Source: Clostridia bacterium (GTDB taxonomy: Bacteria; Bacillota; Clostridia; Christensenellales; UBA1242). From it: a stretch of 64,000 nucleotides of DNA. Of this stretch, positions 11,481 to 45,540 are shown in pieces; position 1 is the first letter of the stretch; every line of letters starts with the position of its first letter. The notes below the pieces were generated by a model. That model had not been told where the DNA came from, ran no database searches, and was given only the letters and a program-made list of their open reading frames with translations. The stretch covers positions 131,690 to 195,689 of the forward strand of contig JAZSRL010000006.1 in the NCBI GenBank assembly GCA_045538455.1, given 5' to 3'. The translations under genes were made by a program, and so were the position numbers.

Positions 11481-11515
11481 ATCTTTATTATACACTTATA
11501 ATTTGCTGTGAGCAA
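11474..11515. promoter_or_regulatory. Face-to-face overlapping divergent promoters (rnr on +, HEPN-CBS on -)
   Basis: Plus strand: TTGACA (11474-11479), N17, TATAAT (11497-11502), 5 nt, GTG 11508. Minus strand: TTGCTC (11515-11510), N17, TATAAT (11492-11487), 6 nt, ATG 11480. Confidence 0.55.
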
Positions 11516-13217
11516 AATAGAAAATCGACTAACTGGTGAATTAACCGTAACATTAAAAGGTTATGGTTTTGTCGATATTAACACAAAAGACAACGATCGA
11601 AGCGATGACATCTTCATTGCCAAAGAAAATTTAAACGGTGCAATCGACGGAGATATCGTTGAGATTCGTTTTAAAAAGAAGAAATTCAAAGGTCGTCCCG
11701 ATGCTGAGGTTGTGCGTGTTATTGCACATCAAACACAACCGATGACAATTGAAGGCATCATGAAGAAATATAAAATTGTGCCACAATTTCCTGCACAGGT
11801 TTTACAAGAAGCCGAACGCGTAGCCAAGAAAGACCTTTCCGATTGCATGTATAATCGCTTAGATTTACGCGAAATTCCAATTTTTACAATTGATCCGGCC
11901 GATGCACGCGACTTAGATGATGCGGTTAGTTTAACCGACAACCAAAACGGTACATTGACTTTAGGTGTGCATATAGCAGATGTTTCCGAATATGTTAAAG
12001 CCGACAGTCTTTTAGATAAAGAAGCATACCGCCGTGGAACCAGTATCTACTTTCCCGACCGTGTTATTCCAATGCTTCCCACTCAATTATCAAATGGAGT
12101 CTGTTCATTAAACCCAAACGAACCCAGATTGACTTTATCAGTGTTTATGATTTTGGATGCTAATTACAATATGGTTGGCTATGAAATTAAGAAAACTTTA
12201 ATTCAAACTAATACGCGCTTTTCCTATGATGAAGTTCAAGATATTTTAGATGGCAATACAGATCATGCATTTAAAAATACTTTATTAAAAATGGCGGAAA
12301 TTACCCAAAAATTCGAACAAAATCGTCAAGAGCGTGGAGAAATTACATTTAATGTGCCAGAACCCAAAATTGTGTTAGATGAAAATGGACAAATCTCATC
12401 CGTATATTCACGCCCACATAAACTAAGTCACCGCATTATTGAAACATTTATGATTATGGCAAATGAAGTTGTGGCCGAACACTGTAATAAATTAAATTTA
12501 CCATTTGTTTATCGAATTCACGAAAAACCAGACCCAATCAAAGTTATCCGCTTTTTGAATACATTAAAACCATTTGAAATTAGACATCAAATTGATTTTG
12601 AAAATACAAATGGTTTTCAATACCAAGACATGCTTGACGGGATTACCGATGAAAACATGAAAATCATTGTTTCAAGTTTAGCACTCCGCTCCATGCAAAA
12701 AGCCAAATATGACCCAAATTGCATCGGACACTTTGCTTTGGGCGCTACCTATTATTGCCACTTTACTTCCCCAATTCGCCGTTATCCAGATTTATTAATT
12801 CACCGCATTATTAAAATGCACTTAGACAATCAATTAAATGCGCAACAAATCGGTCGAATGAAACCTTATGTTGTTGCTGCAAGTTTGCAATCATCACAAA
12901 CCGAACTTGATGCTGTGGCTGCAGAACGCGAAGTAGACGATTTAAAATGCGCAGAATATATGCAAAAACATATTGGTGAAACTTTTGAAGGCGTTGTTAA
13001 CGGCATTACAGACTTTGGTGTATTTGTTTATATTCCCGCGAACACAGCCGAAGGTTTAGTCCGTATTGAAAATTTACCAGACGACCAATATTATTTCCAT
13101 GAAGGTACCATGCAAATGCTAGGCAAGAAATCCAAAATCCGTATCGGCGACCCTATTAAAGTTACCGTCATTGGTGTCAATTTACACAAGTGCAAAATTG
13201 AATTTACAGCAAAATAA
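11508..13217 (+). CDS. rnr: RNase R / RNase II-family 3'-5' exoribonuclease (short form)
   Basis: RNB catalytic motif 'FTIDPADARDLDDAVS' and a C-terminal S1 domain ('FEGVVNGITDFGVFVYI'). The protein is 569 aa. GTG is the only available start. Confidence 0.85.
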   Translation: MSKIENRLTGELTVTLKGYGFVDINTKDNDRSDDIFIAKENLNGAIDGDIVEIRFKKKKFKGRPDAEVVRVIAHQTQPMTIEGIMKKYKIVPQFPAQVLQEAERVAKKDLSDCMYNRLDLREIPIFTIDPADARDLDDAVSLTDNQNGTLTLGVHIADVSEYVKADSLLDKEAYRRGTSIYFPDRVIPMLPTQLSNGVCSLNPNEPRLTLSVFMILDANYNMVGYEIKKTLIQTNTRFSYDEVQDILDGNTDHAFKNTLLKMAEITQKFEQNRQERGEITFNVPEPKIVLDENGQISSVYSRPHKLSHRIIETFMIMANEVVAEHCNKLNLPFVYRIHEKPDPIKVIRFLNTLKPFEIRHQIDFENTNGFQYQDMLDGITDENMKIIVSSLALRSMQKAKYDPNCIGHFALGATYYCHFTSPIRRYPDLLIHRIIKMHLDNQLNAQQIGRMKPYVVAASLQSSQTELDAVAAEREVDDLKCAEYMQKHIGETFEGVVNGITDFGVFVYIPANTAEGLVRIENLPDDQYYFHEGTMQMLGKKSKIRIGDPIKVTVIGVNLHKCKIEFTAK

Positions 13218-14354: not shown

Positions 14355-14678
14355 TTAAGCAGCAGCGCCAGACATATTGAAGATACCGAACAAGATGAAG
14401 AAGATAATCGTTAAGACAGCAATTGAAACTGCACAAACGATAATCAAGTTACGGATACGGCCAAGATTATTTTTATTACGATTCTTGGTGTAATAACTTT
14501 CACTTGCTCCGGTAATAGCATTGTTGCCGCTTGCAGAATCCGATGGTGATACCAAAATACCAATAATCATCACAATACTTAATAAACTAATTAAGCCGAT
14601 GATAATTCCTTGGATAATTGGAAAGCTATCAGCAATCCATTTTGGCATATTTGTTGGTGCTAATAAATTATTTAACAT
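14355..14678 (-). CDS. secG: Probable preprotein translocase subunit SecG
   Basis: Two TM helices flank a Gly/Ser loop. '[26 protein letters not shown]...[13 protein letters not shown]' aligns by eye with B. subtilis SecG 'VVLLQSSKSAGLSGAISGGAEQLFG...LHRITVVLAV'. Confidence 0.55.
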
Positions 14679-17600
14679 TTTTGTACCCTACATTTTGATA
14701 AAATTTCATACCAGTTCCGGCTGGGATTAACTTACCAAAGATAACATTTTCTTTGAGACCTTGTAAGTAGTCAACTTTGTTTTTAACCGCAGCATCGACC
14801 AATACAGAACTGGTTTCTTGGAAGGAAGCCGCCGACAAGAAGCTGTCAGTGCGTAAAGCAGCTTTAGTAATTGACAACAAGACACGCGTTGCTCGCGCAG
14901 GACGCTTACCTTCGTTAATTGCCAACAAGTTCTTATGTTCAAATTCAATAACATTAACGACTGAACCAATTTGGAAGTCGGTATCACCTGCATCTTCAAT
15001 TTTAACTTTTTTCAACATTTGTCTTACAATGATTTCCAAGTGTTTATTGTTAATTGAAATATCTTGTGTTTTATAAACCTTGATAATTTCAGTAATTAAG
15101 TAATCTTGCACGGCTTTGATACCTTTATTACGCAAAATATCGTGTGGATTGAAGACACCTTCGGTCAAAGCTGAACCTGGCTCTACGACATCACCTTTCT
15201 TAGCAATAACTTTCATACTTGCTGGGATTAAGTATGGAACTTCTTTGCCTTCATTTGTTTTAATAACAACTTCAACGCGCTTTTCAACTTGGTTAACAGC
15301 AATAATTGTACCACCGACATCACTAACCAACGCAACACCCTTTGGTACGCGTGCTTCCAAGATTTCTTCGACACGAGGCAAACCTTCGGTAATGTTGGAC
15401 ATAGCAATACCACCACTGTGTTTGGTACGCATGGTTAACTGTGTACCAGGTTCACCAATAGATTGTGCAGCAATAATACCAACAGGTTCACCAACACTAA
15501 CTAATCCATGTCCGCTCATATCGCGACCATAACATTTTGCACAAATACCATGCTTACATTTACAGGTCAAGACGCTACGAACTTCGACTTCTTTAATACC
15601 AATTGCTTCAATATAATCCGCAACATCATCGGTAATCATTGTATCAGCAGGCACCAAAACTTTTTTAGTGGTTGGATCAACAATATCACGAACGGAATAA
15701 CGACCTTTAATACGGCTAGCCAAGTGTTTAACATAACCATCCATACGCAATTCGGTCATAACCATACCCTTTGGTTTTTCACCCAAAGTTGCGAAACAGT
15801 CTTTTTCTGTAACAATAACATCTTGTGCGACATCAACCAAACGACGAGTTAAGTAACCAGCATCTGATGTTTTCAAAGCGGTATCAGCCAAACCTTTACG
15901 ACCACCACGAGATGACAAGAAGTATTCTAACGGCGACAATCCCAAACGATAGCAGCCTTTAGTTGGAACGTCTTCTTTACGACCAGAAACGTTAGCAATA
16001 ATACCACGCATACCAGACAACTGCATAATCTGTTTATTAGAACCACGCGCACCAGATGTAGCCATCATACGAATTGGATTGGTTTGACCTAAGACACTAA
16101 TAACATCATTTTGAATGCGGTCAGTTGCATCTTTCCATAACGCAATGTTGCGGTCTAATTTTTCATCCAAGCTCAACTCACCTTCTGCATAAGCTTTTTC
16201 GATTTTCTTAACTTTTGCTTCGGTGTCTTTAATGATTTGTTCACGATCGGCAGGAATAGTTGCATCGAAAACAGACAATGAAATTGAACCCAAGGTTGAA
16301 TATTTGAAACCAACAGCTTTAATCTTATCAATTGATTCACTAGTTACAGTTGCACCATGAGTTTCAAAGATTTTAACAATTAAATTATTGATATCTTTTT
16401 TAACAACTTCTTTATTGAATTCATATGCAAATTTATTTTCTGGTTTGCTGCGGTCTACAATACCAATATCTTGTGGGAAGCATTGGTTAAATAAGATGCG
16501 ACCAACAGTTGTTTCTACACGACCAAATTCTTCAACTTCATCAAGATTACCTTCGATTTCAAAGTTTGAACGACGAACTTGAATTTTTGCATGTAAATCC
16601 AACTCACCAACATTGTAAGCGTAAATAGCTTCGTTTTCATCTTTAAATACGCTACCTTCACCCTTTGCACCATCGATTTGTTGTGTCATATAATAACAAC
16701 CCAAAATAATATCCTGTGTTGGTGTAACAACAGATTTTGAGTCACTTGGTTTCAAAATGTTATTTGAAGCCAACATCAAGACACGGGCTTCAGCTTGTGC
16801 TTCTGGAGACAATGGAACATGGACAGTCATTTGGTCACCGTCGAAGTCGGCGTTGAATGCGGTACAAACTAATGGGTGTAAACGAATTGCGCGTCCATCA
16901 ACCAAGACTGGTTCGAAAGCTTGAATTGATAATTTGTGCAATGTAGGTTGACGGTTTAACAAAACTGGATGATCGCGGACAACTTCTTCCAAGATATCCC
17001 AAACTTGTGGTTTTTCACGCTCAATTAAGCGTTTTGCACTACGGCTGTGGTGAGCCAATCCCATATCAACCAATTTTTTCATAACGAATGGTTTGAAAAG
17101 TTCCAAAGCCATTTCTTTTGGTAAACCAACTTGGTAGTGTTTTAATTCTGGACCAACAACGATAACAGTACGGCCCGAATAGTCCACGCGCTTACCTAAC
17201 AAGTTGTTACGGAAACGACCCTGTTTACCACGCAAACCTTCTGCCAAAGATTTCAATGGACGACCTTTTGCACCTTGAACAGGTTTACCACGACGACCAT
17301 TATCAATCAAAGCATCAACAGCTTCTTGCAACATGCGTTTTTCGTTACGAATAATAACTTCTGGAGCACCTAAAGAAATTAATTTTTTCAAACGATTGTT
17401 ACGGTTAATAACACGACGATACAAATCGTTAACATCTGTCGTAGCGAAACGACCACCATCAATTTGAACCATAGGACGCAATTCCGGTGGAGTAACTGGC
17501 AACACATCCAAGACCATCCATTCTGGACGACTGCCGCTGTTTTTGAATGATTCAAGTAAATCTAAGCGTTTAATTGCTTTTTCGCGTTTAGTACCTTTAC

Positions 17601-18195
17601 CCTTCGCGATGATTTCATTACACTCTTTAATTTCTTTATCTAAATCGAGTGAAGCCAACATAGTTTTGATTGCTTCAGCACCCATACCAGATTTAAAAGA
17701 TTCGGTACCAAATTTTTCCCATGCTTCGTGCAATTCTCGGTCAGATAAGATTTGTCCATATGATAAAGTAGTTTTACCTGGATCAGTTACAACGAAGGAA
17801 ACAAAATAAATAACTTGTTCCAAATTTTTGATAGTCATATTCAACAAAGTTCCGATCTTTGACATAATACCCTTGAAGTACCATATATGAACTACTGGAG
17901 CAGCCAATTCAATATGTCCCATGCGTTCACGGCGTACGATAGAGCGAGTAACCTCAACACCGCACTTATCACAGACAGTACCTTTGTAGCGGATTAATTT
18001 ATATTTTCCGCAAGAACATTGCCAGTCTTTTTTAGGCCCGAAAATACGCTCGCAGAACAAACCGTCTTTTTCAGGTTTTTGGGTATGATAGTTAATGGTT
18101 TTTGGTTTTGTAACTTCACCATGACTCCATTCCCTAATTTTGTCTGGGCTGGCGATACCAATCTTTAAACTTTCAAAATTATTTAATTCAAACAT
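14668..18195 (-). CDS. rpoC: DNA-directed RNA polymerase subunit beta'
   Basis: 'NADFDGDQM' catalytic loop, N-terminal zinc motif 'CSCGKYK...CDKCGVEV', 1175 aa. Confidence 0.97.
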
Positions 18196-18209: not shown

Positions 18210-21200
18210 TTATTCCTCAAACAAATTTTCGATATCGAACATTTCTAAATCTTTTTCAGCTGGCTCTTCAATTAATTCTTCATCAAATTTAATTTCTGCT
18301 TCCTCTGCTTCTTGATTCTCTGCATCATTATTTGCCAACATTTCAGTATCGTCAACTCCGGTATCAATTTTTTCTAATTCAACTTCTTTCTTGTCAGCTG
18401 TGTAAATACCTACATCGAAACCAAGACCTTGTAATTCACGAATCATAACCTTACTTGCTTCTGGAATTCCCGGTTCTGGTAATTTTGTACCATTAACGAT
18501 TGCCACATATGTTTTTGTACGACCTTGAACATCGTCAGATTTTACGGTTAACATTTCTTGCAAGATGTGTGCGGCACCGTAAGCTTCCAATGCCCAAACT
18601 TCCATTTCACCCATACGCTGACCACCGAATTGAGCTTTACCACCCAATGGTTGTTGTGTTACCAAACTATAAGCACCAGTTGAACGAGCATGGATTTTGG
18701 TATCAACCATGTGATGCAATTTTAACATATACATATAACCAACGGTTGTACGGTTTTGGAATGGTTCGCCAGTACGACCATCATACAATTGCATTTTACC
18801 ATCTTCGGGTAAACCGTTTTGGCGAAGTAATTCTTGGATGTCGTTTTCGTTAGCACCATTGAAAACAGGTGTTGCAACTTTCCATCCTAATGTCTTAGCG
18901 ACTAAACCTAAAGAAACTTCCAACAACTGACCAATATTCAAACGAGAAGGAACACCCAATGGGTTTAAGACGATATCAACCGGTGTACCATCAGCCATAT
19001 AAGGCATATCTTCAACAGGCAAGATTTTTGATACAATACCTTTGTTACCGTGACGACCAGTCATCTTATCACCGACTTTAATGTTACGCTTTTGAGCGAT
19101 AGTAACTTTAATAACTTCGTTAACGCCAACATCCATTTCGTCATGGTTTTTACGGCTAAAGCATTCAACAGCAACAACAACACCGTCTTTACCGTTTTCT
19201 ACGCGTAATGACGCGTCACGAACTTCACGAGATTTTTCACCAAAAATTGCGCGCAATAAACGCTCTTCTGGTGTTAATTCAGATTCACCTTTTGGTGTAA
19301 CTTTACCAACCAGAATATCACCAGTACGAACAAATGAACCAACACGAACAATACCGCGTTCATCCAAGTTTGCTAATGCATCTTCACTTAAGTTTGGAAT
19401 ATCGCGAGTAATTTCTTCGTCACCCAACTTAGTTGTACGAACTTTACATTCTTTCAAGTGCAACGCAATAGAAGTAAATTTATCTTCTTTAACAACTCTT
19501 TCGGAAATCAAGATTGCATCTTCGAAGTTATACCCTTCCCAGTTCATGTAAGCAACGCACATATTTTTACCAATTGCCAATTCACCATTATTGGTTGCAT
19601 AACCATCGGTAATAACTTCTCCCGCTTTAACTTTGTCGCCTTTACGAACAATAGGTTTTTGGTTAATACATGCTTCTTCGTTGTAACGAGTAAATTTGGT
19701 TAATTTATAAAAATCATGTTCATGATTATCATCGCGCTCAATAACGATTTGGTCTGCTGTTACAGAAACAACTGTACCATTTGCTTTGGCTGTTAACATC
19801 ACATTGCTATCCAAAGCAGCACGATATTCCAAACCTGTTGCAACCAATGGAGCTTCAGTACGAATTAACGAAACTGCTTGGCGTTGCATATTTGAACCCA
19901 ACAATGCACGACCCGTATCATCATTATTCAAGAAAGGAATCAATGCCGTTGCCAATGAAATAAACTGACGAGGACTTGCGTCAACATAATCAACGCTTTC
20001 ACGAGGCATATCCAAAACCACATCGCGATGACGACAAGTAACAAATTCACGAGCCAAGCGACCGTCTTCGGTCAATGGTTCGGTACCTTGTGCGACATAG
20101 AATGCATCTTCTTCATCAGCTGTCAAATAATCAACAATGTCGGTAACCTTACCAGTAGCTTTATCGACACGACGCAATGGAGCGGTAATAAAACCATATT
20201 CATTAATGCGTGCGTACATAGCCAAGCTGTTAACCAAACCAATTGATTGACCTTCTGGTGTTTCAACCGCACAAAGACGACTGTTATGGGTATAGTGCAA
20301 GTCACGAACTTCACTGGTTGCGCGTTCTTTAACAATACCACCTGGACCAACAGCTGTAATTTTGCGTTTTTGCGTAATCTCTGTTAACGGATTATTAGTA
20401 TCCATCACATGTGATAATTGAGATACAGCACAGAAGTCACGCAATGAACGAGTAATTGCTTTTGCGTTAATAATGTTCAATGGATTAATTGCCTTACTGT
20501 TAATTTCCATTGTTTGCATGGTTTCGCGCATATTGTTGCGTAATTTCAACATACCATCTTTAAAGTGACGAGCCATTAAGTCACCAACGGTATTCAAACG
20601 ACGATTACCTAAGTGGTCGATGTTATCTTCGTAACCTACTCCATCACTCATATTTAATAAATAAGAAACAGATGCAATAATATCATCACGATGTAAGTGA
20701 CGCATTACCAAATCCTTCGCATTTTCTTTAACAGCTTTAATCTTTTCAGCTTTGGTTGTTTTACCTTCTAATACTTTCAATAAAGTTGGATAGTGAACCA
20801 ATTCTTTAATTCCAGTATCAAATTCAGTACAATCCAAGTAAGCATTAACATTAACACGGTTGTTACCAATAACTTGAACTGCATCACCCAATTCGTTTTT
20901 AATTGTAACAACATTAATACCAGCGTTTTGGATTTTATCCGCCATTTGTTTGTCGATTTCTGTATCATGCGGGACAACAACTTTACCGTTAATTTTAATA
21001 TCTTCTGCGGCAATATGTTTCAAGATACGAGTACTAATACACAATTTTTTATTGAATTTATAACGACCAACAACCGCTAAGTCGTAGTTCGGGAAAGTAA
21101 AGAACATATTGTTCAAACCAGATTCCATAACATCTGCATTTGGCAATTCAGATGGACGCATTTTGCGAGATAATTCAAGCAATGCTTTTTCTTTAGAAAT

Positions 21201-21932
21201 TTCTTCGCCACCTTCATTTGATTTATCAATTGTTGCTTTCAAAACTGGATGATGAGCAAACATTTCCAATAATTCAGCATCGCTACCAATGCCCAAAGCA
21301 CGCAAGAAAGTAATCAAGTTTACCTTATTAGCCTTGTTTGGACTAACAGTAATAATATTGTTAACATCCTTGGTCATTTCAATATAAGCACCATGTGTTG
21401 GACTCATAGTACATTCAATAATGTTTCTGCCAGTTTTATGGTCTTTCGATTGATTGAAATACACACTAGGACTTTTAATAATTTGGTTAACAATAACACG
21501 AGCTACACCATTAACGATAAAATAACCACTGTCGGTCATTTGTGGAACATCACCCAAGAATACATCTTGTTCGATTACTTCGTTAGTTTTGTGACCTTCT
21601 GCGTCTTCTTTGAAAACCACGCGAACTTTAACGCGTAATGGTTTTACATACATTTGACCACGGCGCAAGCATTCCGCTTCGCTATACTTAGCGTCATCGC
21701 TAATGTAATAATCCAAGAAGTACACTTCGCACTTACCTGAATAGTCAGTAATTGGATTAAATTCATCCAATACTTCGCGAATTCCTTTTTCTAAGAAACG
21801 CTTAAAACTCTCCTTTTGAATGTCTAAAAGATATGGGACAGACAACAATTCCGGAACCTTACGAAATGTCATACGCTCCGTTTTTCCATAGGTGTCCTTA
21901 AAAAGTCCCGTCTTTTTAAGATTAACAGCCAT
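18210..21932 (-). CDS. rpoB: DNA-directed RNA polymerase subunit beta
   Basis: Rif-cluster region '[29 protein letters not shown]', plus '[14 protein letters not shown]'. The protein is 1240 aa with an acidic C-terminal tail. Confidence 0.97.
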
Positions 21933-22007: not shown

Positions 22008-22036
22008 AAAATACCACAATTCAAAAGGAATGTCAA
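22008..22036 (-). promoter_or_regulatory. Candidate rpoB promoter
   Basis: Minus strand: TTGACA (22036-22031), N17, TGgTATTTT (-10 at 22013-22008). A leader of roughly 70 nt follows, ending in SD AAGGAAGG. Confidence 0.5.
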
Positions 22037-22102: not shown

Positions 22103-25100
22103 TTAAACTCCGCGGTTATACGCTTCGTCTTTTGGCAAGTAGCCTGTATTAATCGTCCCTTCATCTATTTTATTACCGAGACTATTGCTTGGCACATAAG
22201 TTATATCAATATCATCTAAATCAACAATTTCCCCATTTCCAATGGAAACATCATCTATATGTGGCGGAACCACAGCAACATCGTTATTTTTTCCACTTTC
22301 CGAATTGCCTACCGAGACATCTTTCATATTTAACGCGCTAAGTTTTGTTTCTGTTTCAACTTGAGTTTGAGATTGAGATTGAGATGCACTTGGTTCAGTT
22401 GCAGCACCGCTTGTGCTTGAATTTTCATTTGTTGCACTTTCAATACCGCTGGTATCTGCGCTTGCACCCGCGTTAGGCCTAATTAAATCACCGGTTTGAT
22501 CAATGTTTATTAACGCCTTTTGAATTGCGTCTACATCAGCATCAGTAAGTGTACCATTGCATAAATTTTTAAGCGCTTCTTGATAGCCAGCACCTTCACA
22601 TTCACCCGCCGCTTCAAAACGAGCCGCACTACCCAATTTACGCAGAACACCCATTGGATCTTCAACACCTGCATGCTCCAACAAATCAACAGCCTTAGCT
22701 TGTTCCGCATGAGTATACCAATCCTGTTTTACACCGTCAACATATTGACGATGATTGTTTACATCAGCTGTTTTACGAGCCGCATCGGTTAATTCGATTT
22801 TATCATTCAGAGCGTCCAACTCAGCTAAGCTTTCCGGGCTAAGCTCTCTAAGCATATCATTTTGATAACTTAGGTTGTAATTATCTTGAACAGCTCTATA
22901 GCTGCGGTAGCTGCGGTTTTTTTCATAAGTGTCCATTAATTCTTCATTATTACATAAATCTTGATATTCTTGATATCTTTTGTGATAATTTTTTTGAACA
23001 TCTTCATAGGTGCGGTTATCTTCATATATAAATTGCGTATCATCTGAAACAACTGGACTTTCCGCAGGACTTTCCGATTGACGATTAAAGATACCCTTAA
23101 ACTTATCACCAAGATTTCTAAGTTTATCACCAACATCAATAGTCGAGTCATCCCCAAACATTTCTCCAATTTTAGCACCGCCCCAGGCACCAATTTTAGC
23201 ACCGTACTTGGCACCAAGTTGACCGCCGGCAAACATTGCACCCGCCTTTCCTGCCGCATGAAGAGCGGCGCCCCAACGTTCTTTTCTATTTATGCTTTTA
23301 AAATTTTGCCCAAAGACTTTAGCTTTATTTTTTAATCCTTTTAAACCCTTTTCTACAGTTTGATTTTGTGATTGGTTGCGTTGTTTTGCGGCCGTGCGAT
23401 TTACATCATCATACCATGTTTTAACAAACACCCAAACAGCACTAACAGCACGAGCTTTTGACCCCAACACAGCATAAGTTAGTGATGTACCTAAATATGG
23501 TAAAGATTTGAGAACCATTGCGCCCGCAACTCTTCTGGCGATTTTTTTAACATCTGAAGATTTCAAATCGGAATTTTTTGATGCCTTTGCTTTTTCTTTT
23601 TTATAGGTAGACCACGCAACACGCCCCACATTAGCCACAGCCACAAAGGGAGCAAAAAATTCACCTATACCAATAGCTCTTAAAGCACTAAACACCCCAG
23701 CACCAGTCACTGACATACCAAGAGTTGTAATTACATCAGTAACTGGGTTAAACTTTTTTCCTTTATTTGCCGGTTGTTCCGCAATTTGAAGCATTTTTCC
23801 ATCTGCACCCTTTTCAATAATGCCCTTATCTGTTAAAGCTTTAAGCACAAGATTTTCGTTTGCAACCATACCTACAAAAAGCGCCTCTTTATCACCAGGT
23901 TTTTTAGCGCCTTTAGCGGCATATAATTGTTCTTTTTTTGCAATCGCATCTTCCCCATACAAAAGAGAATAAAGTCCATCAAGTTTTTGTACATTTTGGG
24001 TATAACCATAGCCAGCGACATTCGATTGAGGTTGTCCGTTAATAATTGCTTCAAGTTTTTTTTGAAAATCTGGGTCTTGATCTTTTAATTCTTTGACAGA
24101 ATTTGAAAATTCTTGAAAGCTTTCAACTTGTTTATCAATTTTTTCAAGAAAATCTTCTTTTTTTTCTTCAGGCACAATAGCATCAATTACTTTTTTCAAG
24201 CTTTCTTCATGTAATGTAACCAAAACTTCATCATCTAATTTTGACAAGACAGATTTTTTATAAATCCATTTTTTAAATTTGTTTTTCTCTCTACGGTCTT
24301 TTGCGTTGTTTTGCCCAAATTTTTTATAAGCATCACTATCAACCATGTCCGCTACCATATCAAAAGAAACAGTACCAGGATCATTATTAGTTTTATCAAT
24401 GATTAAGCCCACCAATTTTTCATCGGTAAAACTATCTTTGGTTAATAAGTTTATTATTTCATTTTTCAATTCCGCCGCTTGTGGCATATCTGCTTCGGGA
24501 TTCAAACTACGGAAAATATACTTACCAAAATCAATCGAGCACAAAGTATTCCCAAAATCATCATTAAAATAATTGTTTAAAAATTTAGCTCTCAAAGAAT
24601 ATGGGTGTATACCCTTTTTAGCCATTTTGTCAGCTTGGTTAACTGATTCAGTAAGCGCCGCTCCGGATGCATCAACATCTACAAGCTGCTCATTTGCTTG
24701 TTTCATATAATTAGTAAACTGTTCTTCATATTCTGGTCGAGTTAAACCTGATTGACCAGCCAAATACGCTTCCGTAAGCTTTTTCGCCTCTTCAATTTTA
24801 TCTTCGACAGTATGTATTTGAAACAAAGACTCAATAATTTGATTATTAAAACCATCTCTTACATCTTTATAAGAACCAAAATTATTCTCCACTTTTTTAG
24901 TTAGAAGATACACAAAGGCTTGTTCAATCTTATTGATATCATTTGTTAAGTCTTCAATATGATCTAATGGTTTTTTGGAGGTTCCCTTAAAAACAATTTC
25001 TGGTTCAGGCAACATAGCATATTGTGCGTTTACAGTTTGCGGCACATTATCCAATGCATTTAAACTTTCTTGCGGCGGCACATTATCAAATGTATTTAAA

Positions 25101-25522
25101 CTTTCTTGCGGCGACACATTATCAAATGCATTTAAACTTTCTTGCGCTTGCTGTGCATATTGTTCTGCTCTGTTTATTAAATTATCAACATTTTGTTCTC
25201 TTTTCCGTAAACCTGCAGTATCAGCTGGAACCTCATGCAATTCCGCTTCAGCCGAACTAGCAGAATCATTAGCATTCTTGATAAGTGTTTGAATATCAGA
25301 AATCTGTTGATAATTTAATCTTAAAAATTCTTCAAGACTTTCAGGTGATAAAGTGTCTCTCAACGAATTAATACGATTACTTAAACTTCTTTCAACATTC
25401 TCAATGCGTTTAGAAACATTATCAAGTCTATCGCTTGGTGTTTGATAGTTCTTGATTTTTTCATGTTCTGCTAAGAAAGCATCTAATTCTTCTTGAGTAA
25501 TATCTATGTTGTTTTCCGCCAT
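22103..25522 (-). CDS. Orphan ~1,139-aa coiled-coil, membrane-embedded, glycine-zipper protein
   Basis: Start taken at ATG 25522 (MAENNIDI...); the track start is a TTG inside the promoter. No N-terminal signal peptide. The N-terminal half is long, helical and charged. Central hydrophobic hairpins include 'VITTLGMSVTGAGVFSALRAIGIGEFFAPFVAVANVG' and 'VAGAMVLKSLPYLGTSLTYAVLG'. A glycine zipper reads 'AALHAAGKAGAMFAGGQLGAKYGAKIGAWGGAKIGEMFG'. The tail is Ser/Thr/Gln-rich. Confidence 0.7.
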   Translation of the reverse strand: MAENNIDITQEELDAFLAEHEKIKNYQTPSDRLDNVSKRIENVERSLSNRINSLRDTLSPESLEEFLRLNYQQISDIQTLIKNANDSASSAEAELHEVPADTAGLRKREQNVDNLINRAEQYAQQAQESLNAFDNVSPQESLNTFDNVPPQESLNALDNVPQTVNAQYAMLPEPEIVFKGTSKKPLDHIEDLTNDINKIEQAFVYLLTKKVENNFGSYKDVRDGFNNQIIESLFQIHTVEDKIEEAKKLTEAYLAGQSGLTRPEYEEQFTNYMKQANEQLVDVDASGAALTESVNQADKMAKKGIHPYSLRAKFLNNYFNDDFGNTLCSIDFGKYIFRSLNPEADMPQAAELKNEIINLLTKDSFTDEKLVGLIIDKTNNDPGTVSFDMVADMVDSDAYKKFGQNNAKDRREKNKFKKWIYKKSVLSKLDDEVLVTLHEESLKKVIDAIVPEEKKEDFLEKIDKQVESFQEFSNSVKELKDQDPDFQKKLEAIINGQPQSNVAGYGYTQNVQKLDGLYSLLYGEDAIAKKEQLYAAKGAKKPGDKEALFVGMVANENLVLKALTDKGIIEKGADGKMLQIAEQPANKGKKFNPVTDVITTLGMSVTGAGVFSALRAIGIGEFFAPFVAVANVGRVAWSTYKKEKAKASKNSDLKSSDVKKIARRVAGAMVLKSLPYLGTSLTYAVLGSKARAVSAVWVFVKTWYDDVNRTAAKQRNQSQNQTVEKGLKGLKNKAKVFGQNFKSINRKERWGAALHAAGKAGAMFAGGQLGAKYGAKIGAWGGAKIGEMFGDDSTIDVGDKLRNLGDKFKGIFNRQSESPAESPVVSDDTQFIYEDNRTYEDVQKNYHKRYQEYQDLCNNEELMDTYEKNRSYRSYRAVQDNYNLSYQNDMLRELSPESLAELDALNDKIELTDAARKTADVNNHRQYVDGVKQDWYTHAEQAKAVDLLEHAGVEDPMGVLRKLGSAARFEAAGECEGAGYQEALKNLCNGTLTDADVDAIQKALINIDQTGDLIRPNAGASADTSGIESATNENSSTSGAATEPSASQSQSQTQVETETKLSALNMKDVSVGNSESGKNNDVAVVPPHIDDVSIGNGEIVDLDDIDITYVPSNSLGNKIDEGTINTGYLPKDEAYNRGV
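25041..25148 (-). repeat. 3 x 36-bp in-frame tandem repeat inside the orphan gene
   Basis: Units at 25041-25076, 25077-25112 and 25113-25148 encode QESLNAFDNVSP / QESLNTFDNVPP / QESLNALDNVPQ. Confidence 0.9.
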
Positions 25523-25526
25523 ATTG

Positions 25527-25558
25527 TATTGTACAATAAGCGACAATATTGTACAATA
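25527..25558. promoter_or_regulatory. Two copies of the perfect 12-bp palindrome TATTGTACAATA, overlapping the promoter of the orphan gene
   Basis: Copies lie at 25527-25538 and 25547-25558, 20 bp start to start. On the minus strand they supply TTGTAC (-35-like) and TACAAT (-10, 25533-25528). The ATG at 25522 follows 5 nt after the -10. Confidence 0.5.
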
Positions 25559-25614
25559 CAAATTAGTAATTTTGCTAAAGTTTTTTTAGACTAAATTATT
25601 TAGCGACAATCTAT

Positions 25615-25654: not shown

Positions 25655-25730
25655 GCCTTCGTAGCTCAGTCGGTAGAGCAAGGGACTGAAAATCCCTGTG
25701 TCCGTGGTTCGATTCCGCGCGAAGGCACCA
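25655..25730 (+). tRNA. tRNA-Phe (anticodon GAA), CCA encoded
   Basis: Cloverleaf folded by hand. Acceptor GCCTTCG/CGAAGGC. Anticodon arm AGGGA-CTGAAAA-TCCCT. T arm CGTGG-TTCGATT-CCGCG. 76 nt. Confidence 0.95.
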
Positions 25731-36154: not shown

Positions 36155-36631
36155 ATGAGATGTCCAAATTGTGGTTCACGCGATAATAAAGTTGTCGACA
36201 GTCGTACTAATGATAATTCAAATTCAATTCGCCGTCGTCGCGAATGTTTAAAATGCAGTAAGCGCTTTACTAGTTATGAAACAATTGAGCGCGTATCTTT
36301 ATTAGTAATTAAAAATGACGGTAGTCGTCAATCTTTTGATTCACAAAAAATTAAAAATAGCATTATGGCAGCCACTGGTAAGCGCCCCGTATCAATGAAA
36401 CAAATTGATAACATCGTAGAAAGTATTGAAATGCAAATTGCAAATACCGCTATGGGCGACCAACAAGAAATTGCCAGCAGCATTATCGGCGACATGGTTA
36501 TGGAAGAATTGAAAAAAATTGATGAAGTTGCTTACATTCGTTTTGCAGCAGTATATCGTCAATTTAAAGATGTTTCAACATTTGTTAATTTCGTAAAAGA
36601 ATTTGAAAAAGAAATCGCAAAGAAAATTTAA
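36155..36631 (+). CDS. nrdR: Transcriptional repressor NrdR
   Basis: Zn ribbon 'MRCPNCGSRDNKVVDSR...RRRRECLKCSKRFTSYE' plus an ATP-cone. SD AAAGGAG upstream. Confidence 0.9.
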   Translation: MRCPNCGSRDNKVVDSRTNDNSNSIRRRRECLKCSKRFTSYETIERVSLLVIKNDGSRQSFDSQKIKNSIMAATGKRPVSMKQIDNIVESIEMQIANTAMGDQQEIASSIIGDMVMEELKKIDEVAYIRFAAVYRQFKDVSTFVNFVKEFEKEIAKKI

Positions 36632-37677
36632 CTTTGCGATTTTTCTTTTAGTTCTGCCAAGCGGAGTGCTTCCACCATTTCCGTTATTTCTCCGTCCACA
36701 AATTTAGTAAGGTTGTATTCGGTGCGATTTATGCGATGGTCAGTTACTCTGCCTTGTGGATAATTATATGTGCGAATCCGTTCACTACGGTCACCCGTAC
36801 CCACTTGTTCATGTCGTGCAGAAGCGTATTTTGCATCTTCTAAACTTTGGTAATAATGTGCCAATTTAGATACAAGTACAGTCATCGCTTTTTCACGGTT
36901 AGCTAATTGGCTACGCCCATCTTGACAGGTAACAACCATATTAGTTGGTAAATGTGTTATACGAATAGCACTTTCGGTCTTGTTAATATGTTGACCGCCC
37001 GCACCAGATGCACGGTAGACATCAATGCGCAAATCTTTTTCATCAATTTGAAAGTCAACAGTTGTTGCTTCGGGTAAAACAGCCACTGTCGCGGTTGAAG
37101 TATGGATGCGACCTTGTGATTCTGTTTCTGGAACGCGTTGTACGCGATGAACACCGCTTTCAAATTTAAACTTTGAGAAAGCACCTTCCCCCTTTACCAT
37201 AAATGTAACATTCTTCACCCCGCCAATACCATTCTCTTCAATATCGGTAATTTCAATTTGAAAACCAAGGCTTGTGGCATACAACGAATACATACGCAGT
37301 AACACGGCTGCAAACAAACACGCTTCGTCACCACCAGCCGCAGGACGAATTTCAATAATAACATTTGCATCATCGCGTTCGTCTTTTGGGGTCAAAAGTA
37401 ATTGTAATTCTTGTTGGGTTTGTTCCAATAGTTTCTGGTTTTCTGCAATTTCTTCTTTGGCTAATTCAGCTAATTCTGGATCCGTTATTGCCTGTGCAGT
37501 TGCAATATCATTCACAAGTTTTTGATACTTGCGATATGTATCAATCGTTGGCGCCAATTTTGACGCTTCTTTGGAAATTTGTGAATAACGCGTAAAATCA
37601 TTAAAAACTTCTGGTAAAGTTAATTGCTCTAACAGTTGCATATATTTTGCTTCTAAAACACTTACTTCTTCAAACAT
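36628..37677 (-). CDS. prfA: Peptide chain release factor 1
   Basis: 'GGQHINKTESAIRITHLPT' (GGQ) and 'RVPETESQGRIHTSTATVAVLPE' (an RF1-type PxT region). prmC lies immediately upstream. Confidence 0.9.
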   Translation of the reverse strand: MFEEVSVLEAKYMQLLEQLTLPEVFNDFTRYSQISKEASKLAPTIDTYRKYQKLVNDIATAQAITDPELAELAKEEIAENQKLLEQTQQELQLLLTPKDERDDANVIIEIRPAAGGDEACLFAAVLLRMYSLYATSLGFQIEITDIEENGIGGVKNVTFMVKGEGAFSKFKFESGVHRVQRVPETESQGRIHTSTATVAVLPEATTVDFQIDEKDLRIDVYRASGAGGQHINKTESAIRITHLPTNMVVTCQDGRSQLANREKAMTVLVSKLAHYYQSLEDAKYASARHEQVGTGDRSERIRTYNYPQGRVTDHRINRTEYNLTKFVDGEITEMVEALRLAELKEKSQS

Positions 37678-44067: not shown

Positions 44068-45540
44068 CTAACTCACTCGTTTACCGAGTTTGGAACAAAC
44101 TAAGAAAAGCACGAGTGCAAATCCAACAACAACCATTAAAGGGACAAAATCAATAATAGATTTTGATGTTGGCATAGAATCTCTTTTAGTAATAACCGCT
44201 TCAACACCTGCATGAGTCCAACCAACCTCATAGTTAGTCCCCTCAATTCTATACCAAAGCGTATAAGTTCCTGGGGTTTTTGCTGTAACGGCTTGAATAT
44301 TTTCATAACCAATCACAGAATCATCTGGCTGTTCACCACTTGTACAATAATAATAAATTGTACCTTCTCCAGTGGTAATATTACCAGTACCATTAAATAC
44401 AGAAATATTAGAACCCGTGTAAGATGTATCTGCACCTTCTATAGTTCCTTTTTCAAATACAGGTAATGCTCTTTCTATTGTTGCCGTTATACCGGTAGGC
44501 GTCCATGTAATATCGGCATAATTATCACAACTATGCATTCGGTAATATAACATATATTCTCCCGCATCAGCCTCTTTAATATCGGCAATATTCAAATAAC
44601 CAATTTTGTTTGGATGAGGTTCGGTCGTACTAGCATAATAAAGAATACGGTGATTTAAACATTCATCTGGACCAATTGCTTCTCCGGTAAACAATTGTTG
44701 CTTACTTCCATTGTATGGTTCGATAGAATTTGAGGCTTGCAAAGTACCAGTCTTCAAATATCCTGTTGGTTTGGCAATTGTAGTCGAGATGCCCATGTAG
44801 GTAATATCTGATGCTTCGAAATATTCATTACCTTCTATCCAGCACCATAGATAATATGTACCCTCATCTGCTTTTTTTAGATTATCTATATCAGTCTCAA
44901 AAACATCTTGAATTGGTGTCCCAGGCATATACGGAGCGTAAGTACCACTCGTATGTGCATAATAATAAATTGTTCCAACTTTAGGCAGACCAGATGCTCT
45001 CCCATAAAAGAGAACATGCTCTTCACCGTCATAAGTAATCGGCCCCATCGAACCCAACCATCCGTTACTTGGTACTGCTTTACCAATTGTTACAGTTGTA
45101 GTGCCAATTTTTACAGGTTGATAATAAACAGTATAGCCGTCGTAATCAATGTAATATATCCTAAAATAGATATCATATGACCCCATTTCAACTAAAAACA
45201 TATAATCATTTTGTTCCCGCCAATCACCATCTTCGTTAATTCGAAACTGAATATAATACCCAGAATTACCAGTACTTGAACTTAAAGTCTTTGCCACACC
45301 CTTAGACCTAAAAAGGTTTAAAGGATATCCAGTATAAGGTATGGTTTCATAAATAGTCGGCAAATCATTCATAAAATCACTTGATGACCGATCTTCTTCG
45401 CGAAAATCTTCAGCATTGTAATTATTAACAGCACTTGAAATTTCAACATCAAAATGAGCTAATATAAAAGGTGCAACCGTAAAAATAGTAAACAAAACCA
45501 AAAATAAAAACACAGTTGTCATTGAAATTTGTTTTTTCAT
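44068..45540 (-). CDS. 490-aa membrane-anchored surface protein, mini-paralogue of the giant repeat protein
   Basis: N-terminal signal/TM 'TTVFLFLVLFTIFTVAPFILA'. Four to five repeats carry the same signature as the giant gene ('GTYYLWCWIEGNEYFEASD', 'GEYMLYYRMHSCDNYADITW', 'GTYTLWYRIEGTNYEVGW'). C-terminal TM 'FVPLMVVVGFALVLFLVC' plus a basic tail. Confidence 0.75.
   Translation of the reverse strand: MKKQISMTTVFLFLVLFTIFTVAPFILAHFDVEISSAVNNYNAEDFREEDRSSSDFMNDLPTIYETIPYTGYPLNLFRSKGVAKTLSSSTGNSGYYIQFRINEDGDWREQNDYMFLVEMGSYDIYFRIYYIDYDGYTVYYQPVKIGTTTVTIGKAVPSNGWLGSMGPITYDGEEHVLFYGRASGLPKVGTIYYYAHTSGTYAPYMPGTPIQDVFETDIDNLKKADEGTYYLWCWIEGNEYFEASDITYMGISTTIAKPTGYLKTGTLQASNSIEPYNGSKQQLFTGEAIGPDECLNHRILYYASTTEPHPNKIGYLNIADIKEADAGEYMLYYRMHSCDNYADITWTPTGITATIERALPVFEKGTIEGADTSYTGSNISVFNGTGNITTGEGTIYYYCTSGEQPDDSVIGYENIQAVTAKTPGTYTLWYRIEGTNYEVGWTHAGVEAVITKRDSMPTSKSIIDFVPLMVVVGFALVLFLVCSKLGKRVS

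What the first reader, a model, noticed from the sequence alone, without database searches (positions are those of the whole stretch)
22103..25522. An orphan ~1,139-aa protein combines a cytoplasmic coiled coil, central membrane hairpins, a glycine zipper and a low-complexity tail
Seen in sequence:
- There is no signal peptide.
- About 600 aa of charged, helical, heptad-looking sequence includes a 3x12-aa repeat.
- Two hydrophobic hairpin-like regions follow ('VITTLGMSVTGAGVFSALRAIGIGEFFAPFVAVANVG' and 'VAGAMVLKSLPYLGTSLTYAVLGSKARAVSAVWVFV').
- A GxxxG/A-rich amphipathic stretch follows ('AALHAAGKAGAMFAGGQLGAKYGAKIGAWGGAKIGEMFG').
- Next is a Tyr/Asn/Arg-rich segment ('YEDNRTYEDVQKNYHKRYQEYQD...NRSYRSYRAVQDNYNLSYQND').
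- The tail is S/T/Q-rich.
- I recognise no enzymatic or known domain motif.
- The gene is monocistronic, wedged between the rpoB promoter and tRNA-Phe, and preceded by a twin-palindrome operator-like site.

Inference: it may be a large membrane-associated scaffold or membrane-remodelling or pore-forming protein. Glycine zippers are typical of membrane-inserting and channel-forming proteins. This is the best candidate here for a truly uncharacterised function, but the role is entirely open.
Basis: partly seen in the sequence, partly recalled or inferred. Interest (0 to 1): 0.55.

Follow-up and report, generated by a model that had tools for sequence, protein, structure and literature searches.

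The report
Hypervariable mosaic orphan protein beside rpoB
This is a real, intact gene for a large protein found only in a small group of uncultured gut Clostridia; it has no known relatives and evolves far faster than its neighbours by shuffling segments between variants, and its function is still unknown.

Summary
Pfam, NCBIfam, PHROGs, PADLOC, PDB sequences and Foldseek (PDB, viral models) all give no significant match. A profile search of 1.84 billion representative proteins finds only 28 relatives. All share one architecture: an optional variable helical N-terminus, a new roughly 280-aa all-alpha domain, two Gly/Ala/Ser-rich helical hairpins, a glycine zipper, a new roughly 120-aa C-terminal domain, and a tail of allele-specific short repeats.

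The main new result is evolutionary. In genomes whose RpoB and RpoC are 96-97% identical, and whose other neighbours are 73-94% identical, this protein is only 28-42% identical. It is visibly mosaic: segments assort independently and dS varies from 0.04 to 0.58 within the gene. The core is under purifying selection (dN/dS about 0.3), so it is a working gene.

The "membrane hairpins" are only marginally hydrophobic and may not be classical transmembrane helices. The "operator" palindrome is not conserved and overlaps a conserved sigma-A-type promoter placed for a leaderless mRNA. Linkage to rpoB is lost in distant relatives.

Best guess, at low confidence: a self-associating scaffold on the inner face of the membrane. 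The main rival is a conditional membrane-perforating conflict protein.

The parts
22103..25522 (-). CDS of the 1139-aa family protein (stop codon included)
   Evidence: the start is supported by the MA- start of all relatives; dN/dS is below 1 in the core
25528..25555 (-). sigma-A-type promoter-like site (TGTACA-16-TACAAT). The -10 box ends 5 nt before the ATG and there is no Shine-Dalgarno, so the mRNA is probably leaderless.
   Evidence: A -10-like box 0-8 nt (5-6 in most loci) upstream of the ATG, 17 nt after a TTGnnn hexamer by my reading, recurs in 10 of 11 loci, including distant ones in other contexts
   Evidence: Only 12 of 15 positions pair in L002, and the repeat is absent from L003, L004, L008, L009 and L011
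24623..25522 (-). aa 1-300: hypervariable helical, low-complexity N-terminal region. It is dispensable: P0027 lacks it.
   Evidence: (first AF2 model: helices, pLDDT 60-89 for aa 30-140)
25039..25146 (-). 36-nt x3 tandem repeat encoding QESLNxFDNVxP x3 (aa 127-162)
23768..24610 (-). aa 305-585: conserved all-alpha globular domain (about 14 helices) with no known relative
   Evidence: (pLDDT 80-96)
23603..23752 (-). aa 591-640: HP1, a Gly/Ala/Ser/Thr/Val-rich helical hairpin with a conserved central Pro/Gly turn
   Evidence: median best KD window 1.69; Hessa sum +1.1 to +6.7
23387..23557 (-). aa 656-712: HP2, a Lys-studded amphipathic/hydrophobic hairpin with a conserved P-Y and Arg. The HP1-HP2 loop is net positive in all members.
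23153..23287 (-). aa 746-790: glycine zipper (small-xxx-small, about 13 overlapping motifs). It contains a 24-nt x2.2 tandem repeat (23166-23217) whose copy number differs between alleles.
22844..23026 (-). aa 833-893: duplicated Tyr/Asn/Arg-rich segment, present or absent depending on the allele
22478..22843 (-). aa 894-1015: conserved C-terminal domain (helices plus a beta-hairpin), the best-conserved module, with no known relative
   Evidence: (pLDDT 85-95)
22106..22477 (-). aa 1016-1139: S/T/Q-rich tail with degenerate repeats (VSVGN / VSIGN). In relatives the tail is an array of 3-6 allele-specific short motifs.
25655..25730 (+). divergent tRNA-Phe(GAA), which flanks the gene in relatives of the clade
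22008..22036 (-). rpoB's own promoter-like site (TTGACA-17-TATTTT, with TG), inside a flank that is conserved across loci

Best explanation
The gene encodes a lineage-specific, vertically inherited protein that is expressed in vegetative cells from its own sigma-A-type promoter, probably as a leaderless mRNA.

Proposed mechanism (inferred):
- The protein stays in the cytoplasm.
- It attaches to, or dips into, the inner face of the cell membrane through two Gly/Ala/Ser-rich helical hairpins whose flanks are Lys/Arg- and Trp/Tyr-rich.
- It self-associates through those hairpins and the adjacent glycine-zipper helix.
- It presents two novel folded alpha domains, plus a variable N-terminal helical arm and a C-terminal array of short repeated peptide motifs, as docking surfaces for partners.
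- In short, it would be a membrane-proximal scaffold or organiser.

Its sequence diversifies quickly because alleles exchange segments by recombination and because the arm and the tail are under little or no purifying selection.

Shown: the gene is real and intact, the architecture is conserved, it lies outside known families, it is hypervariable and mosaic, and the promoter layout is conserved.

Inferred: membrane association, topology, oligomerisation and the scaffold role.
For: - A real gene under selection. Intact ORFs of about 850-1380 aa carry the same module order in about 25 relatives. dN/dS is 0.18-0.57 in the core, hairpins and C-domain.
- Vertical inheritance. The gene holds the same slot (Gate-Gate-tRNA-Phe / gene / rpoB-rpoC) in six of the related loci that were read. 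It also sits in housekeeping contexts in distant relatives. It has no phage, plasmid or defence signatures.
- Cytoplasmic side. There is no signal peptide, and the N-terminal half is acidic. The loop between HP1 and HP2 is net +2 to +7 in all 28 members scored, and Trp/Tyr residues lie next to Lys-rich flanks.
- Hairpins. HP1 is about 45 hydrophobic residues with a conserved central Pro/Gly turn. Small residues are conserved in the consensus (G/A/S spacing), and AF2 builds helix-turn-helix there.
- Docking surfaces. Two domains are modelled at pLDDT 80-96. In 17 of 26 tails, 7-mers repeated at 6 of 7 identity or better reach a count that none of 50 shuffles reaches.
- Vegetative expression. 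A TTGnnn-17-TAnAAT layout with the -10 box 0-8 nt (5-6 in most loci) before the ATG is found in 10 of 11 loci.
Against: - By a Hessa-type insertion-energy sum the hairpins score +1 to +7 kcal/mol. That is no better than the most hydrophobic stretches of soluble proteins in this genome such as ThrS and IleS, whereas true TM helices here score -0.5 to -5.4.
- AF2 confidence in this region is low, pLDDT 30-68. The helices could be buried in a soluble oligomer or insert only conditionally.
- A housekeeping scaffold would not be expected to show dN above the neighbouring gene's dS (0.09-0.21 against rpoB dS 0.067), nor 28-42% identity where neighbours are 73-97% identical.
- No partner, localisation or expression data exist.
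Confidence: 0.33

Rival explanations
1. A conditional membrane-perforating conflict protein. This could be a single-gene abortive-infection or anti-phage sensor-effector, or an intracellular toxin-like factor. It would normally be soluble and auto-inhibited by its folded domains. On a trigger sensed by the variable arm or tail, the marginally hydrophobic hairpins and the glycine zipper would insert into the membrane and form a pore.
For: - Marginal hydrophobicity plus a glycine zipper is what is seen in proteins that switch from soluble to membrane-inserted, such as the T7SS toxins TelE and EsxX (10.1101/2022.09.07.506920, PMC12744356), and not in co-translationally inserted TM proteins.
- Extreme divergence, mosaic alleles, dN above the background dS, and dN/dS of about 1.2 in the arm and tail fit an arms race.
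- The gene sits beside a tRNA gene whose flanks carry different insertions in different relatives.
Against: - The gene is always present, single-copy and syntenic across relatives whose housekeeping proteins are only 50-75% identical. That is unusual for defence or toxin genes.
- There is no PADLOC hit, no immunity-like neighbour, and no LXG or other secretion domain.
- The promoter looks constitutive.
- No window of the gene shows dN/dS clearly above 1.
Confidence: 0.22
2. A soluble cytoplasmic structural or oligomeric protein. The Gly/Ala/Ser-rich helices would form the buried core of a homo-oligomeric helical bundle or filament, with no membrane involved.
For: - Hessa-type sums are in the range of soluble proteins.
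- The protein is all-helical by prediction.
- Conserved small residues fit tight helix packing.
- There is no signal peptide.
Against: - Lys/Arg-rich flanks with Trp/Tyr at helix ends, and a positive loop in all members, are typical of membrane interfaces.
- HP1 reaches Kyte-Doolittle 1.7-2.2 in many members.
- AF2 does not pack these helices against the folded domains; pLDDT there is low.
Confidence: 0.2
3. A cell-surface, spore-coat or other exported structural protein that leaves the cytoplasm by a non-classical route. Its variability would then be driven by phages or the host.
For: - The evolutionary pattern (hypervariable ends, mosaic alleles) resembles that of surface antigens.
- It has Tyr-rich and S/T/Q-rich segments.
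- The organism carries sporulation-associated genes nearby: SpmA/B-like Gate proteins, YtxC and PSP1.
Against: - There is no signal peptide and no secretion-system domain.
- The promoter is sigma-A-like, not sigma-E- or sigma-K-like.
- The basic flanks of the hairpins predict that both large halves stay in the cytoplasm.
Confidence: 0.1
4. A factor linked to RNA polymerase, for example a membrane tether or regulator of RNAP. The idea comes from its position directly upstream of rpoBC and from a GreA-like N-terminus in one relative.
For: - The gene is adjacent to rpoB, with no detected terminator, in the window and in the relatives of the clade that were read.
- P0021 has a Pfam GreA_GreB_N match with E 6.5e-8.
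Against: - The linkage is lost in distant members: P0031 and P0029 lie elsewhere.
- rpoB has its own conserved promoter.
- The GreA-like stretch occurs in 1 of 31 members. In my phmmer alignment to E. coli GreA it covers only about aa 8-40, and my pattern search found no GreA-type acidic tip motif. It lies in a swapped N-terminal segment of an allele that also carries an in-frame stop.
- The window protein itself gives no GreA hit at E<=1.
Confidence: 0.05
5. A domesticated relic of a phage tail tape-measure protein.
For: - It shares the general look of a tape measure: long, helical, with central Gly-rich hydrophobic segments.
- Tape-measure proteins dominate the non-significant Foldseek hits in the viral library, best E 0.015.
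Against: - Neither the window protein (Pfam, NCBIfam, PHROGs) nor any of the 31 members (Pfam, PHROGs) gives a tape-measure HMM hit.
- tblastn against 50,697 phage records gives nothing.
- TM-scores are at or below 0.1.
- The neighbourhood is housekeeping in every locus.
Confidence: 0.04

Closest known systems
Glycine-zipper membrane-depolarising T7SS toxins (TelE, EsxX)
   Same: They occur in Firmicutes, lack a signal peptide, have a helical N-terminal region, and carry a small-xxx-small glycine zipper of marginal hydrophobicity. They are polymorphic (papers found).
   Different: Here there is no LXG domain, no chaperone or immunity genes, and no T7SS context. The zipper is central and is followed by about 350 aa that include a conserved folded domain. 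The gene is core-genome and syntenic.
Phage tail tape-measure proteins (e.g. TP901-1 TMP, PMC5099701)
   Same: They are long and alpha-helical, with central Gly/Ala-rich hydrophobic segments and a length that varies by repeats. They give the top, though non-significant, Foldseek hits.
   Different: There is no sequence-profile relationship, no phage context, and two globular domains that tape-measure proteins are not known to have.
Hairpin-anchored membrane organisers with Gly-rich helices (MICOS Mic10, reticulon/oleosin-type hairpins); comparison from general knowledge only
   Same: They have a hydrophobic helical hairpin with a central Pro/Gly turn and Gly-rich packing motifs, and both termini lie on the same side of the membrane.
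   Different: Those are small or eukaryotic proteins with clearly hydrophobic helices. No homology was tested or found. This is an analogy only.
Intrinsically disordered scaffold regions carrying short linear motifs (e.g. the RNase E C-terminal half); comparison from general knowledge only
   Same: They evolve fast and carry short recognition motifs embedded in low-complexity sequence, next to a membrane-binding element.
   Different: There is no catalytic domain here. The motifs are tandemly repeated and differ from allele to allele.
GreA/GreB N-terminal coiled coil (PF03449)
   Same: One relative (P0021) matches the first helix of the GreA coiled coil.
   Different: The window protein does not match. 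The match in P0021 is partial, my pattern search found no GreA-type acidic tip motif in it, and there is no GreA C-terminal domain.

Membership tests
Phage tail tape-measure protein | Match to tape-measure HMMs (Pfam PF10145, TIGR01760, or tape-measure PHROGs) | tested here: not met
   No such hit at E<=1 (Pfam, NCBIfam) or E<=0.1 (PHROGs) for the window protein. None of the 31 members hits one in Pfam at E<=0.001 or in PHROGs at E<=0.01.
Phage tail tape-measure protein | Encoded within a tail-gene cluster of a phage or prophage | tested here: not met
   The neighbours are housekeeping genes in every locus. tblastn against phage genomes gives no match.
Phage tail tape-measure protein | Structural similarity | tested here: inconclusive
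   Tape-measure proteins top the BFVD list, but with E>=0.015, probability <=0.23 and TM-score <=0.1.
T7SS LXG glycine-zipper toxins (TelE/EsxX type) | N-terminal LXG domain | tested here: not met
   No LXG hit in Pfam at E<=1 or in any of the 31 members at E<=0.001.
T7SS LXG glycine-zipper toxins (TelE/EsxX type) | Adjacent immunity or chaperone genes and a T7SS locus | tested here: not met
   The flanks are tRNA-Phe and rpoB, with no small membrane-protein gene adjacent. Whether a T7SS exists elsewhere in the genome could not be checked.
Pfam glycine-zipper families (Gly-zipper_Omp, Gly-zipper_YMGG, Rick_17kDa_Anti) | HMM match | tested here: not met
   No hit at E<=1.
GreA/GreB transcript cleavage factors | N-terminal coiled coil (PF03449) with acidic tip, plus the C-terminal GreA domain | tested here: not met
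   The window protein gives no hit. Only P0021 matches PF03449. In my phmmer alignment to E. coli GreA the match covers only about aa 8-40, and my pattern search found no GreA-type tip motif. No member has the C-terminal domain.
Classical integral membrane protein (helical hairpin, N-in/C-in) | Segments hydrophobic enough for translocon insertion | tested here: inconclusive
   The best Kyte-Doolittle 19-residue window has a median of 1.69 for HP1 and 1.31 for HP2. A Hessa-scale sum gives +1.1 to +6.7 (HP1), against -0.5 to -5.4 for control TM helices. The scale values were taken from memory and no position weighting was applied.
Classical integral membrane protein (helical hairpin, N-in/C-in) | Positive-inside charge distribution | tested here: met
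   The HP1-HP2 loop is net +2 to +7 in all 28 members scored. The window protein carries net +11 over aa 601-700 and +9 over aa 701-800.
Known anti-phage defence systems (PADLOC-DB 2.0) | HMM match to any component | tested here: not met
   0 families at E<=0.1.
Pore-forming colicin / Bcl-2-like helical bundle | Structural match of a bundle enclosing a hydrophobic hairpin, plus an immunity gene | tested here: not met
   Foldseek against PDB gives no hit with E<0.3, and there is no immunity-like neighbour. The hairpin region was modelled at low confidence, so the structural part of this test is weak.

The most novel reading that the evidence does not exclude
A new kind of core-genome conflict protein. 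One polypeptide would keep a latent membrane-perforating module (two Gly-rich hairpins plus a glycine zipper) locked between two previously unseen folds. Its sensing surfaces (the N-terminal arm and the tail of short repeated motifs) would be continually reshuffled between alleles by recombination to track phage or other intracellular adversaries. It would be inherited vertically, like a housekeeping gene, rather than carried on a defence island.
Probability: 0.15. Interest if true: 0.75.

Novelty: categorically new. Interest (0 to 1): 0.52.

Why it matters
**Unexplored protein space.** Two domains modelled with confidence (about 280 aa and about 120 aa), and the whole architecture, have no detectable relative. 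This holds for the curated family libraries, for PDB sequences and structures, and for 1.84 billion representative proteins outside this small clade.

**An unusual evolutionary pattern.** Genomes that are 96-97% identical in RpoB and RpoC differ by 60-70% in this protein. Segments recombine independently, yet the gene is always present at the same place. That combination marks an important but unknown interaction surface in an uncultured group of animal-gut Clostridia.

**If it is a conflict protein,** it would broaden the idea of where defence functions are encoded in a genome.

**If it is a scaffold,** it would be a new membrane-organising module.

Either way, expression and localisation experiments can test it.

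Tried and rejected
- **Family libraries.** Pfam, NCBIfam, PHROGs and PADLOC on the window protein, and Pfam and PHROGs on all 31 members, gave nothing significant. The single GreA_N hit was traced to one recombinant allele that is interrupted by a stop codon.
- **PDB by sequence and by profile.** Nothing was found. AopB and FtsY appeared at E of about 7 and were ignored.
- **First AF2 run (5 sequences, full length).** It was unusable, pLDDT 42. The second run, on aa 296-1020 with 31 sequences, gave two good domains.
- **Second word-indexed homologue search, with the 31-sequence profile.** It returned only the same five proteins, so the search was wasted.
- **Operator idea.** Rejected, because the palindrome is not conserved.
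- **The missing Shine-Dalgarno as something special.** Rejected, because several other genes in the window lack an SD and have a -10-like box close to the start codon.
- **Relation to the 3884-aa giant ORF in the same window.** None was found.
- **A shared tail motif across the family.** Rejected. phi-[ST]-phi-G-[ND] occurs only in the closest five proteins, and P..[DE][YF] only in some of the others.
- **Literature search for a matching description.** Nothing was found.

Full report
**1. The observation**

The ORF lies on the minus strand. The ORF listing reports 22103-25561 from a TTG. The ATG at 25522 gives MAENNIDITQ... (1139 aa), and every full-length relative starts MA- at the homologous ATGGC.

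- An acidic N-terminus without a signal peptide.
- QESLNxFDNVxP x3 at aa 127-162, encoded by a 36-nt x3 tandem repeat at 25039-25146.
- Hydrophobic stretches at aa 597-633 and 665-700.
- A run of about 13 overlapping small-xxx-small motifs at aa 752-790, containing a 24-nt x2.2 repeat.
- A duplicated Tyr/Asn/Arg segment at aa 833-893.
- An S/T/Q-rich tail.

tRNA-Phe(GAA) lies divergently at 25655-25730. rpoB (18210-21932) and rpoC (14668-18195) follow on the same strand. A perfect 15-nt inverted repeat sits at 25524-25538 / 25547-25561.

**2. No known family**

The window protein has no significant hit in Pfam, NCBIfam, PHROGs, PADLOC or PDB sequences.

A profile of the five close homologues was searched without a word index against 1.84 billion representative proteins. 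It found only 28 proteins at E<=0.001, of which 27 were at E<=1e-10. So neither the whole protein nor any single domain recurs in another architecture at HMMER sensitivity.

A scan of 185,579 GTDB species representatives found two loci, both 'Clostridia bacterium' MAGs, one of them from water-buffalo cecum.

Scanning all 31 family members gave nothing in PHROGs. In Pfam it gave only one GreA_GreB_N hit and one marginal hit. A 31-sequence profile against PDB sequences gave nothing below E 0.8.

**3. Architecture**

Sub-profiles show the same order in essentially all members:
1. an optional variable N-terminal region;
2. a core domain (aa 305-590 of the window protein);
3. hairpin HP1;
4. a basic loop;
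5. hairpin HP2;
6. the glycine zipper;
7. an optional Tyr/Asn/Arg segment;
8. the C-terminal domain (aa 894-1015);
9. the tail.

P0027 begins directly at the core, behind its own promoter, so the N-terminal arm is dispensable.

AlphaFold2 with five sequences failed, with mean pLDDT 42. With 31 sequences on aa 296-1020 it gave:
- pLDDT 80-96 for an all-alpha domain of about 14 helices (aa 305-585);
- pLDDT 85-95 for the C-terminal domain (helices plus a beta-hairpin);
- pLDDT only 30-68 for the hairpin and zipper region.

**4. Are the hairpins transmembrane?**

HP1 is conserved as about 45 Gly/Ala/Ser/Thr/Val-rich residues around a Pro/Gly turn. On the Kyte-Doolittle scale, the median of the best 19-residue window is:

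| Segment | Median best KD window |
|---|---|
| HP1 | 1.69 |
| HP2 | 1.31 |
| Glycine zipper | 0.90 |

The HP1-HP2 loop is net positive in all 28 members scored, and Trp/Tyr residues border the Lys-rich flanks. This fits a hairpin that enters from, and returns to, the cytoplasmic side.

A simple Hessa-scale sum points the other way. (The scale values came from memory and no position weighting was applied.)

| Segment | Hessa-scale sum (kcal/mol) |
|---|---|
| HP1 | +1.1 to +6.7 |
| HP2 (median) | +6.3 |
| Glycine zipper (median) | +7.9 |
| True TM helices in this window | -0.5 to -5.4 |
| Most hydrophobic stretches of soluble proteins in this window | +4.7 to +8.3 |

The segments are therefore marginally hydrophobic. 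Peripheral, cooperative, conditional or no membrane insertion all remain possible.

**5. Expression signals**

The 15-nt inverted repeat is not conserved. Only 12 of 15 positions pair in the closest relative, and it is absent from the others.

What is conserved is a TTGnnn-17-TAnAAT promoter-like layout, by my reading of the aligned upstream sequences. Its -10 box ends 0-8 nt (5-6 in most loci) before the ATG, and there is no Shine-Dalgarno. This holds in 10 of 11 loci, including distant members in different genomic contexts. It is the layout of a leaderless mRNA made by the housekeeping sigma factor.

This is not special to this gene. Several other genes in the window also lack an SD and have a -10-like box close to the start codon.

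No terminator-like site lies between the stop codon and rpoB, and rpoB has its own conserved promoter-like site. So 'monocistronic' is unproven.

**6. Context**

In the window and in the related loci of the clade that were read, the order is Gate-Gate (SpmA/B-like), tRNA-Phe (divergent), this gene, rpoB, rpoC, and then a gene for a small protein (SecG-like in the window). In two loci a 680-aa secreted repeat protein lies between the Gate genes and tRNA-Phe.

In more distant relatives the rpoB linkage is gone:
- P0031 keeps the upstream Gate genes and tRNA-Phe, but is followed by a pgm cluster.
- P0029 lies after ftsZ-rpsO.

The gene is thus vertically inherited in housekeeping surroundings, and its adjacency to rpoB is ancestral gene order, not a universal linkage. 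The content next to tRNA-Phe varies between genomes.

**7. Evolution: the main finding**

Amino-acid identity between the window genome and the genomes of L008, L009 and L011:

| Protein(s) | Identity |
|---|---|
| RpoB, RpoC | 96-97% |
| Nine other neighbouring proteins (not all present in every locus) | 73-96% |
| This protein | 28-42%, over only part of its length |

At the DNA level the flanks align at 76-88%, but the gene aligns only in short islands.

Identity by segment is discordant between alleles:

| Allele | Segment identities to the window protein |
|---|---|
| P0002 | arm 82%, HP1 54% |
| P0003 | arm 20%, HP1 and HP2 94%, tail 87% |
| P0006 | core 41%, Tyr/Asn/Arg segment 70%, C-domain 76% |

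Comparison with the nearest genome, L002:
- rpoB has dN 0.001 and dS 0.067.
- This gene has dN 0.104 overall.
- Its dS ranges from 0.037 (tail) to 0.575 (hairpins).
- dN in several segments (0.09-0.21) exceeds rpoB's dS.
- dN/dS is about 1.2 in the arm and tail, and 0.18-0.57 in the core, hairpins and C-domain.

Codon bias in rpoB may lower its dS somewhat. Even so, the eight- to fifteen-fold spread of dS within one gene requires import of divergent segments.

Copy-number changes of tandem repeats add further variation.

In 17 of 26 tails, 7-mers repeated at 6 of 7 identity or better reach a count that none of 50 shuffles reaches. The motif differs from allele to allele, for example VPPHTQDYRTPG, DPTFGPERM.DY and NVEWA.GADQY. 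In the window protein the repeats are degenerate (VSVGN / VSIGN).

One relative (P0021) has an in-frame stop after codon 419. Its swapped N-terminal segment of about 110 aa resembles the first helix of GreA. Apart from several short fragmentary sequences whose ends were not checked, the other members are long ORFs with the full module order.

**8. Interpretation**

Firmly established:
- The gene is real and selectively maintained.
- It is restricted to one lineage.
- It lies outside known families.
- It has two new predicted domains.
- It has a conserved Gly-rich hairpin and zipper module.
- It is extremely hypervariable, by mosaic recombination.

Function is inferred only.

I rank first (about one in three) a cytoplasmic-face, membrane-associated, self-associating scaffold. 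Its arm, domains and motif-array tail would recruit partners. The grounds are vertical inheritance, a constitutive-type promoter, the charge and aromatic pattern around the hairpins, and the motif arrays.

The main rival (about one in five) is a conditional pore-former acting in intracellular conflict. It explains the marginal hydrophobicity and the evolutionary pattern better. It fits poorly with strict vertical inheritance and with the lack of defence or immunity signatures.

A soluble helical-bundle oligomer (about one in five) cannot be excluded. Surface or spore protein, RNAP-linked factor and tape-measure relic are less likely, for the reasons given under each.

**9. Comparison and novelty**

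It resembles glycine-zipper T7SS toxins, phage tape-measure proteins and hairpin-anchored membrane organisers in single features only. Every membership test that could be run failed or was inconclusive.

Interest is moderate to high. The strongest hook is a core-genome gene that diverges by 60-70% between genomes with nearly identical RNA polymerase.

Noticed in passing
window 45629-57283 (-) and 44068-45540 (-): A 3884-aa ORF has an N-terminal signal/TM segment, a C-terminal TM anchor with a basic tail and a PEPEPE spacer, and is rich in Thr, Tyr and Asn. It has no Pfam domain. The adjacent 490-aa ORF has a similar N-terminus and anchor and also has no Pfam hit. Both look like giant orphan surface proteins and are unrelated to the family studied here.
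   Followed up: partly
window, e.g. upstream of 60828-62912 (polA), 11508-13217 (RNase R) and 36628-37677 (prfA): Many genes lack a Shine-Dalgarno, and several of them have a -10-like box (e.g. TGcTATACT, TATAAT) a few nt before the start codon. Leaderless mRNAs may be common in this organism.
   Followed up: partly
L008 5499-7538; L009 7733-9775; L012 8572-9929; L002 191-1565: The flank of tRNA-Phe is a variable spot among relatives. Two genomes carry a 680-aa secreted protein made of about 12 YY.S..QYVLD..TRTW repeats (no Pfam hit). Another carries ArsR plus an ArsP-type permease. In L002 three small unknown genes take the place of the Gate genes next to the tRNA.
   Followed up: no
L007 31-1482 (protein P0021): This allele has an in-frame stop after codon 419, and homologous reading continues in the same frame. 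Its first roughly 110 aa are replaced by a segment matching the GreA N-terminal helix (Pfam E 6.5e-8). Its upstream sequence differs and is Shine-Dalgarno-like. It may be a recombinant with greA, a pseudogene, or a sequencing error.
   Followed up: partly
N-terminal regions of P0001-P0021 (window aa 8-17): A short helix-start motif phi-[TS]-Q-[ED]-E-[IVL]-D-x-[LF] (e.g. ITQEELDAF, LTQDEIDSI, LSQEEIDKL) recurs once or twice in every otherwise unalignable N-terminal arm, at varying positions.
   Followed up: no
window 18210-21932 and upstream: rpoB is not preceded by the rplJ and rplL genes (part of the usual rplKAJL ribosomal-protein cluster). It has its own conserved promoter-like site and a 5' leader of about 70 nt with a small GGGC/GCCC hairpin.
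   Followed up: no
window 14355-14678 (-): A 107-aa ORF overlaps the end of rpoC by 11 nt. It has a weak SecG-like Pfam match (E 2.4e-4, below the gathering score). A similar-sized gene follows rpoC in relatives, and the protein is 82-87% identical in three of them.
   Followed up: no
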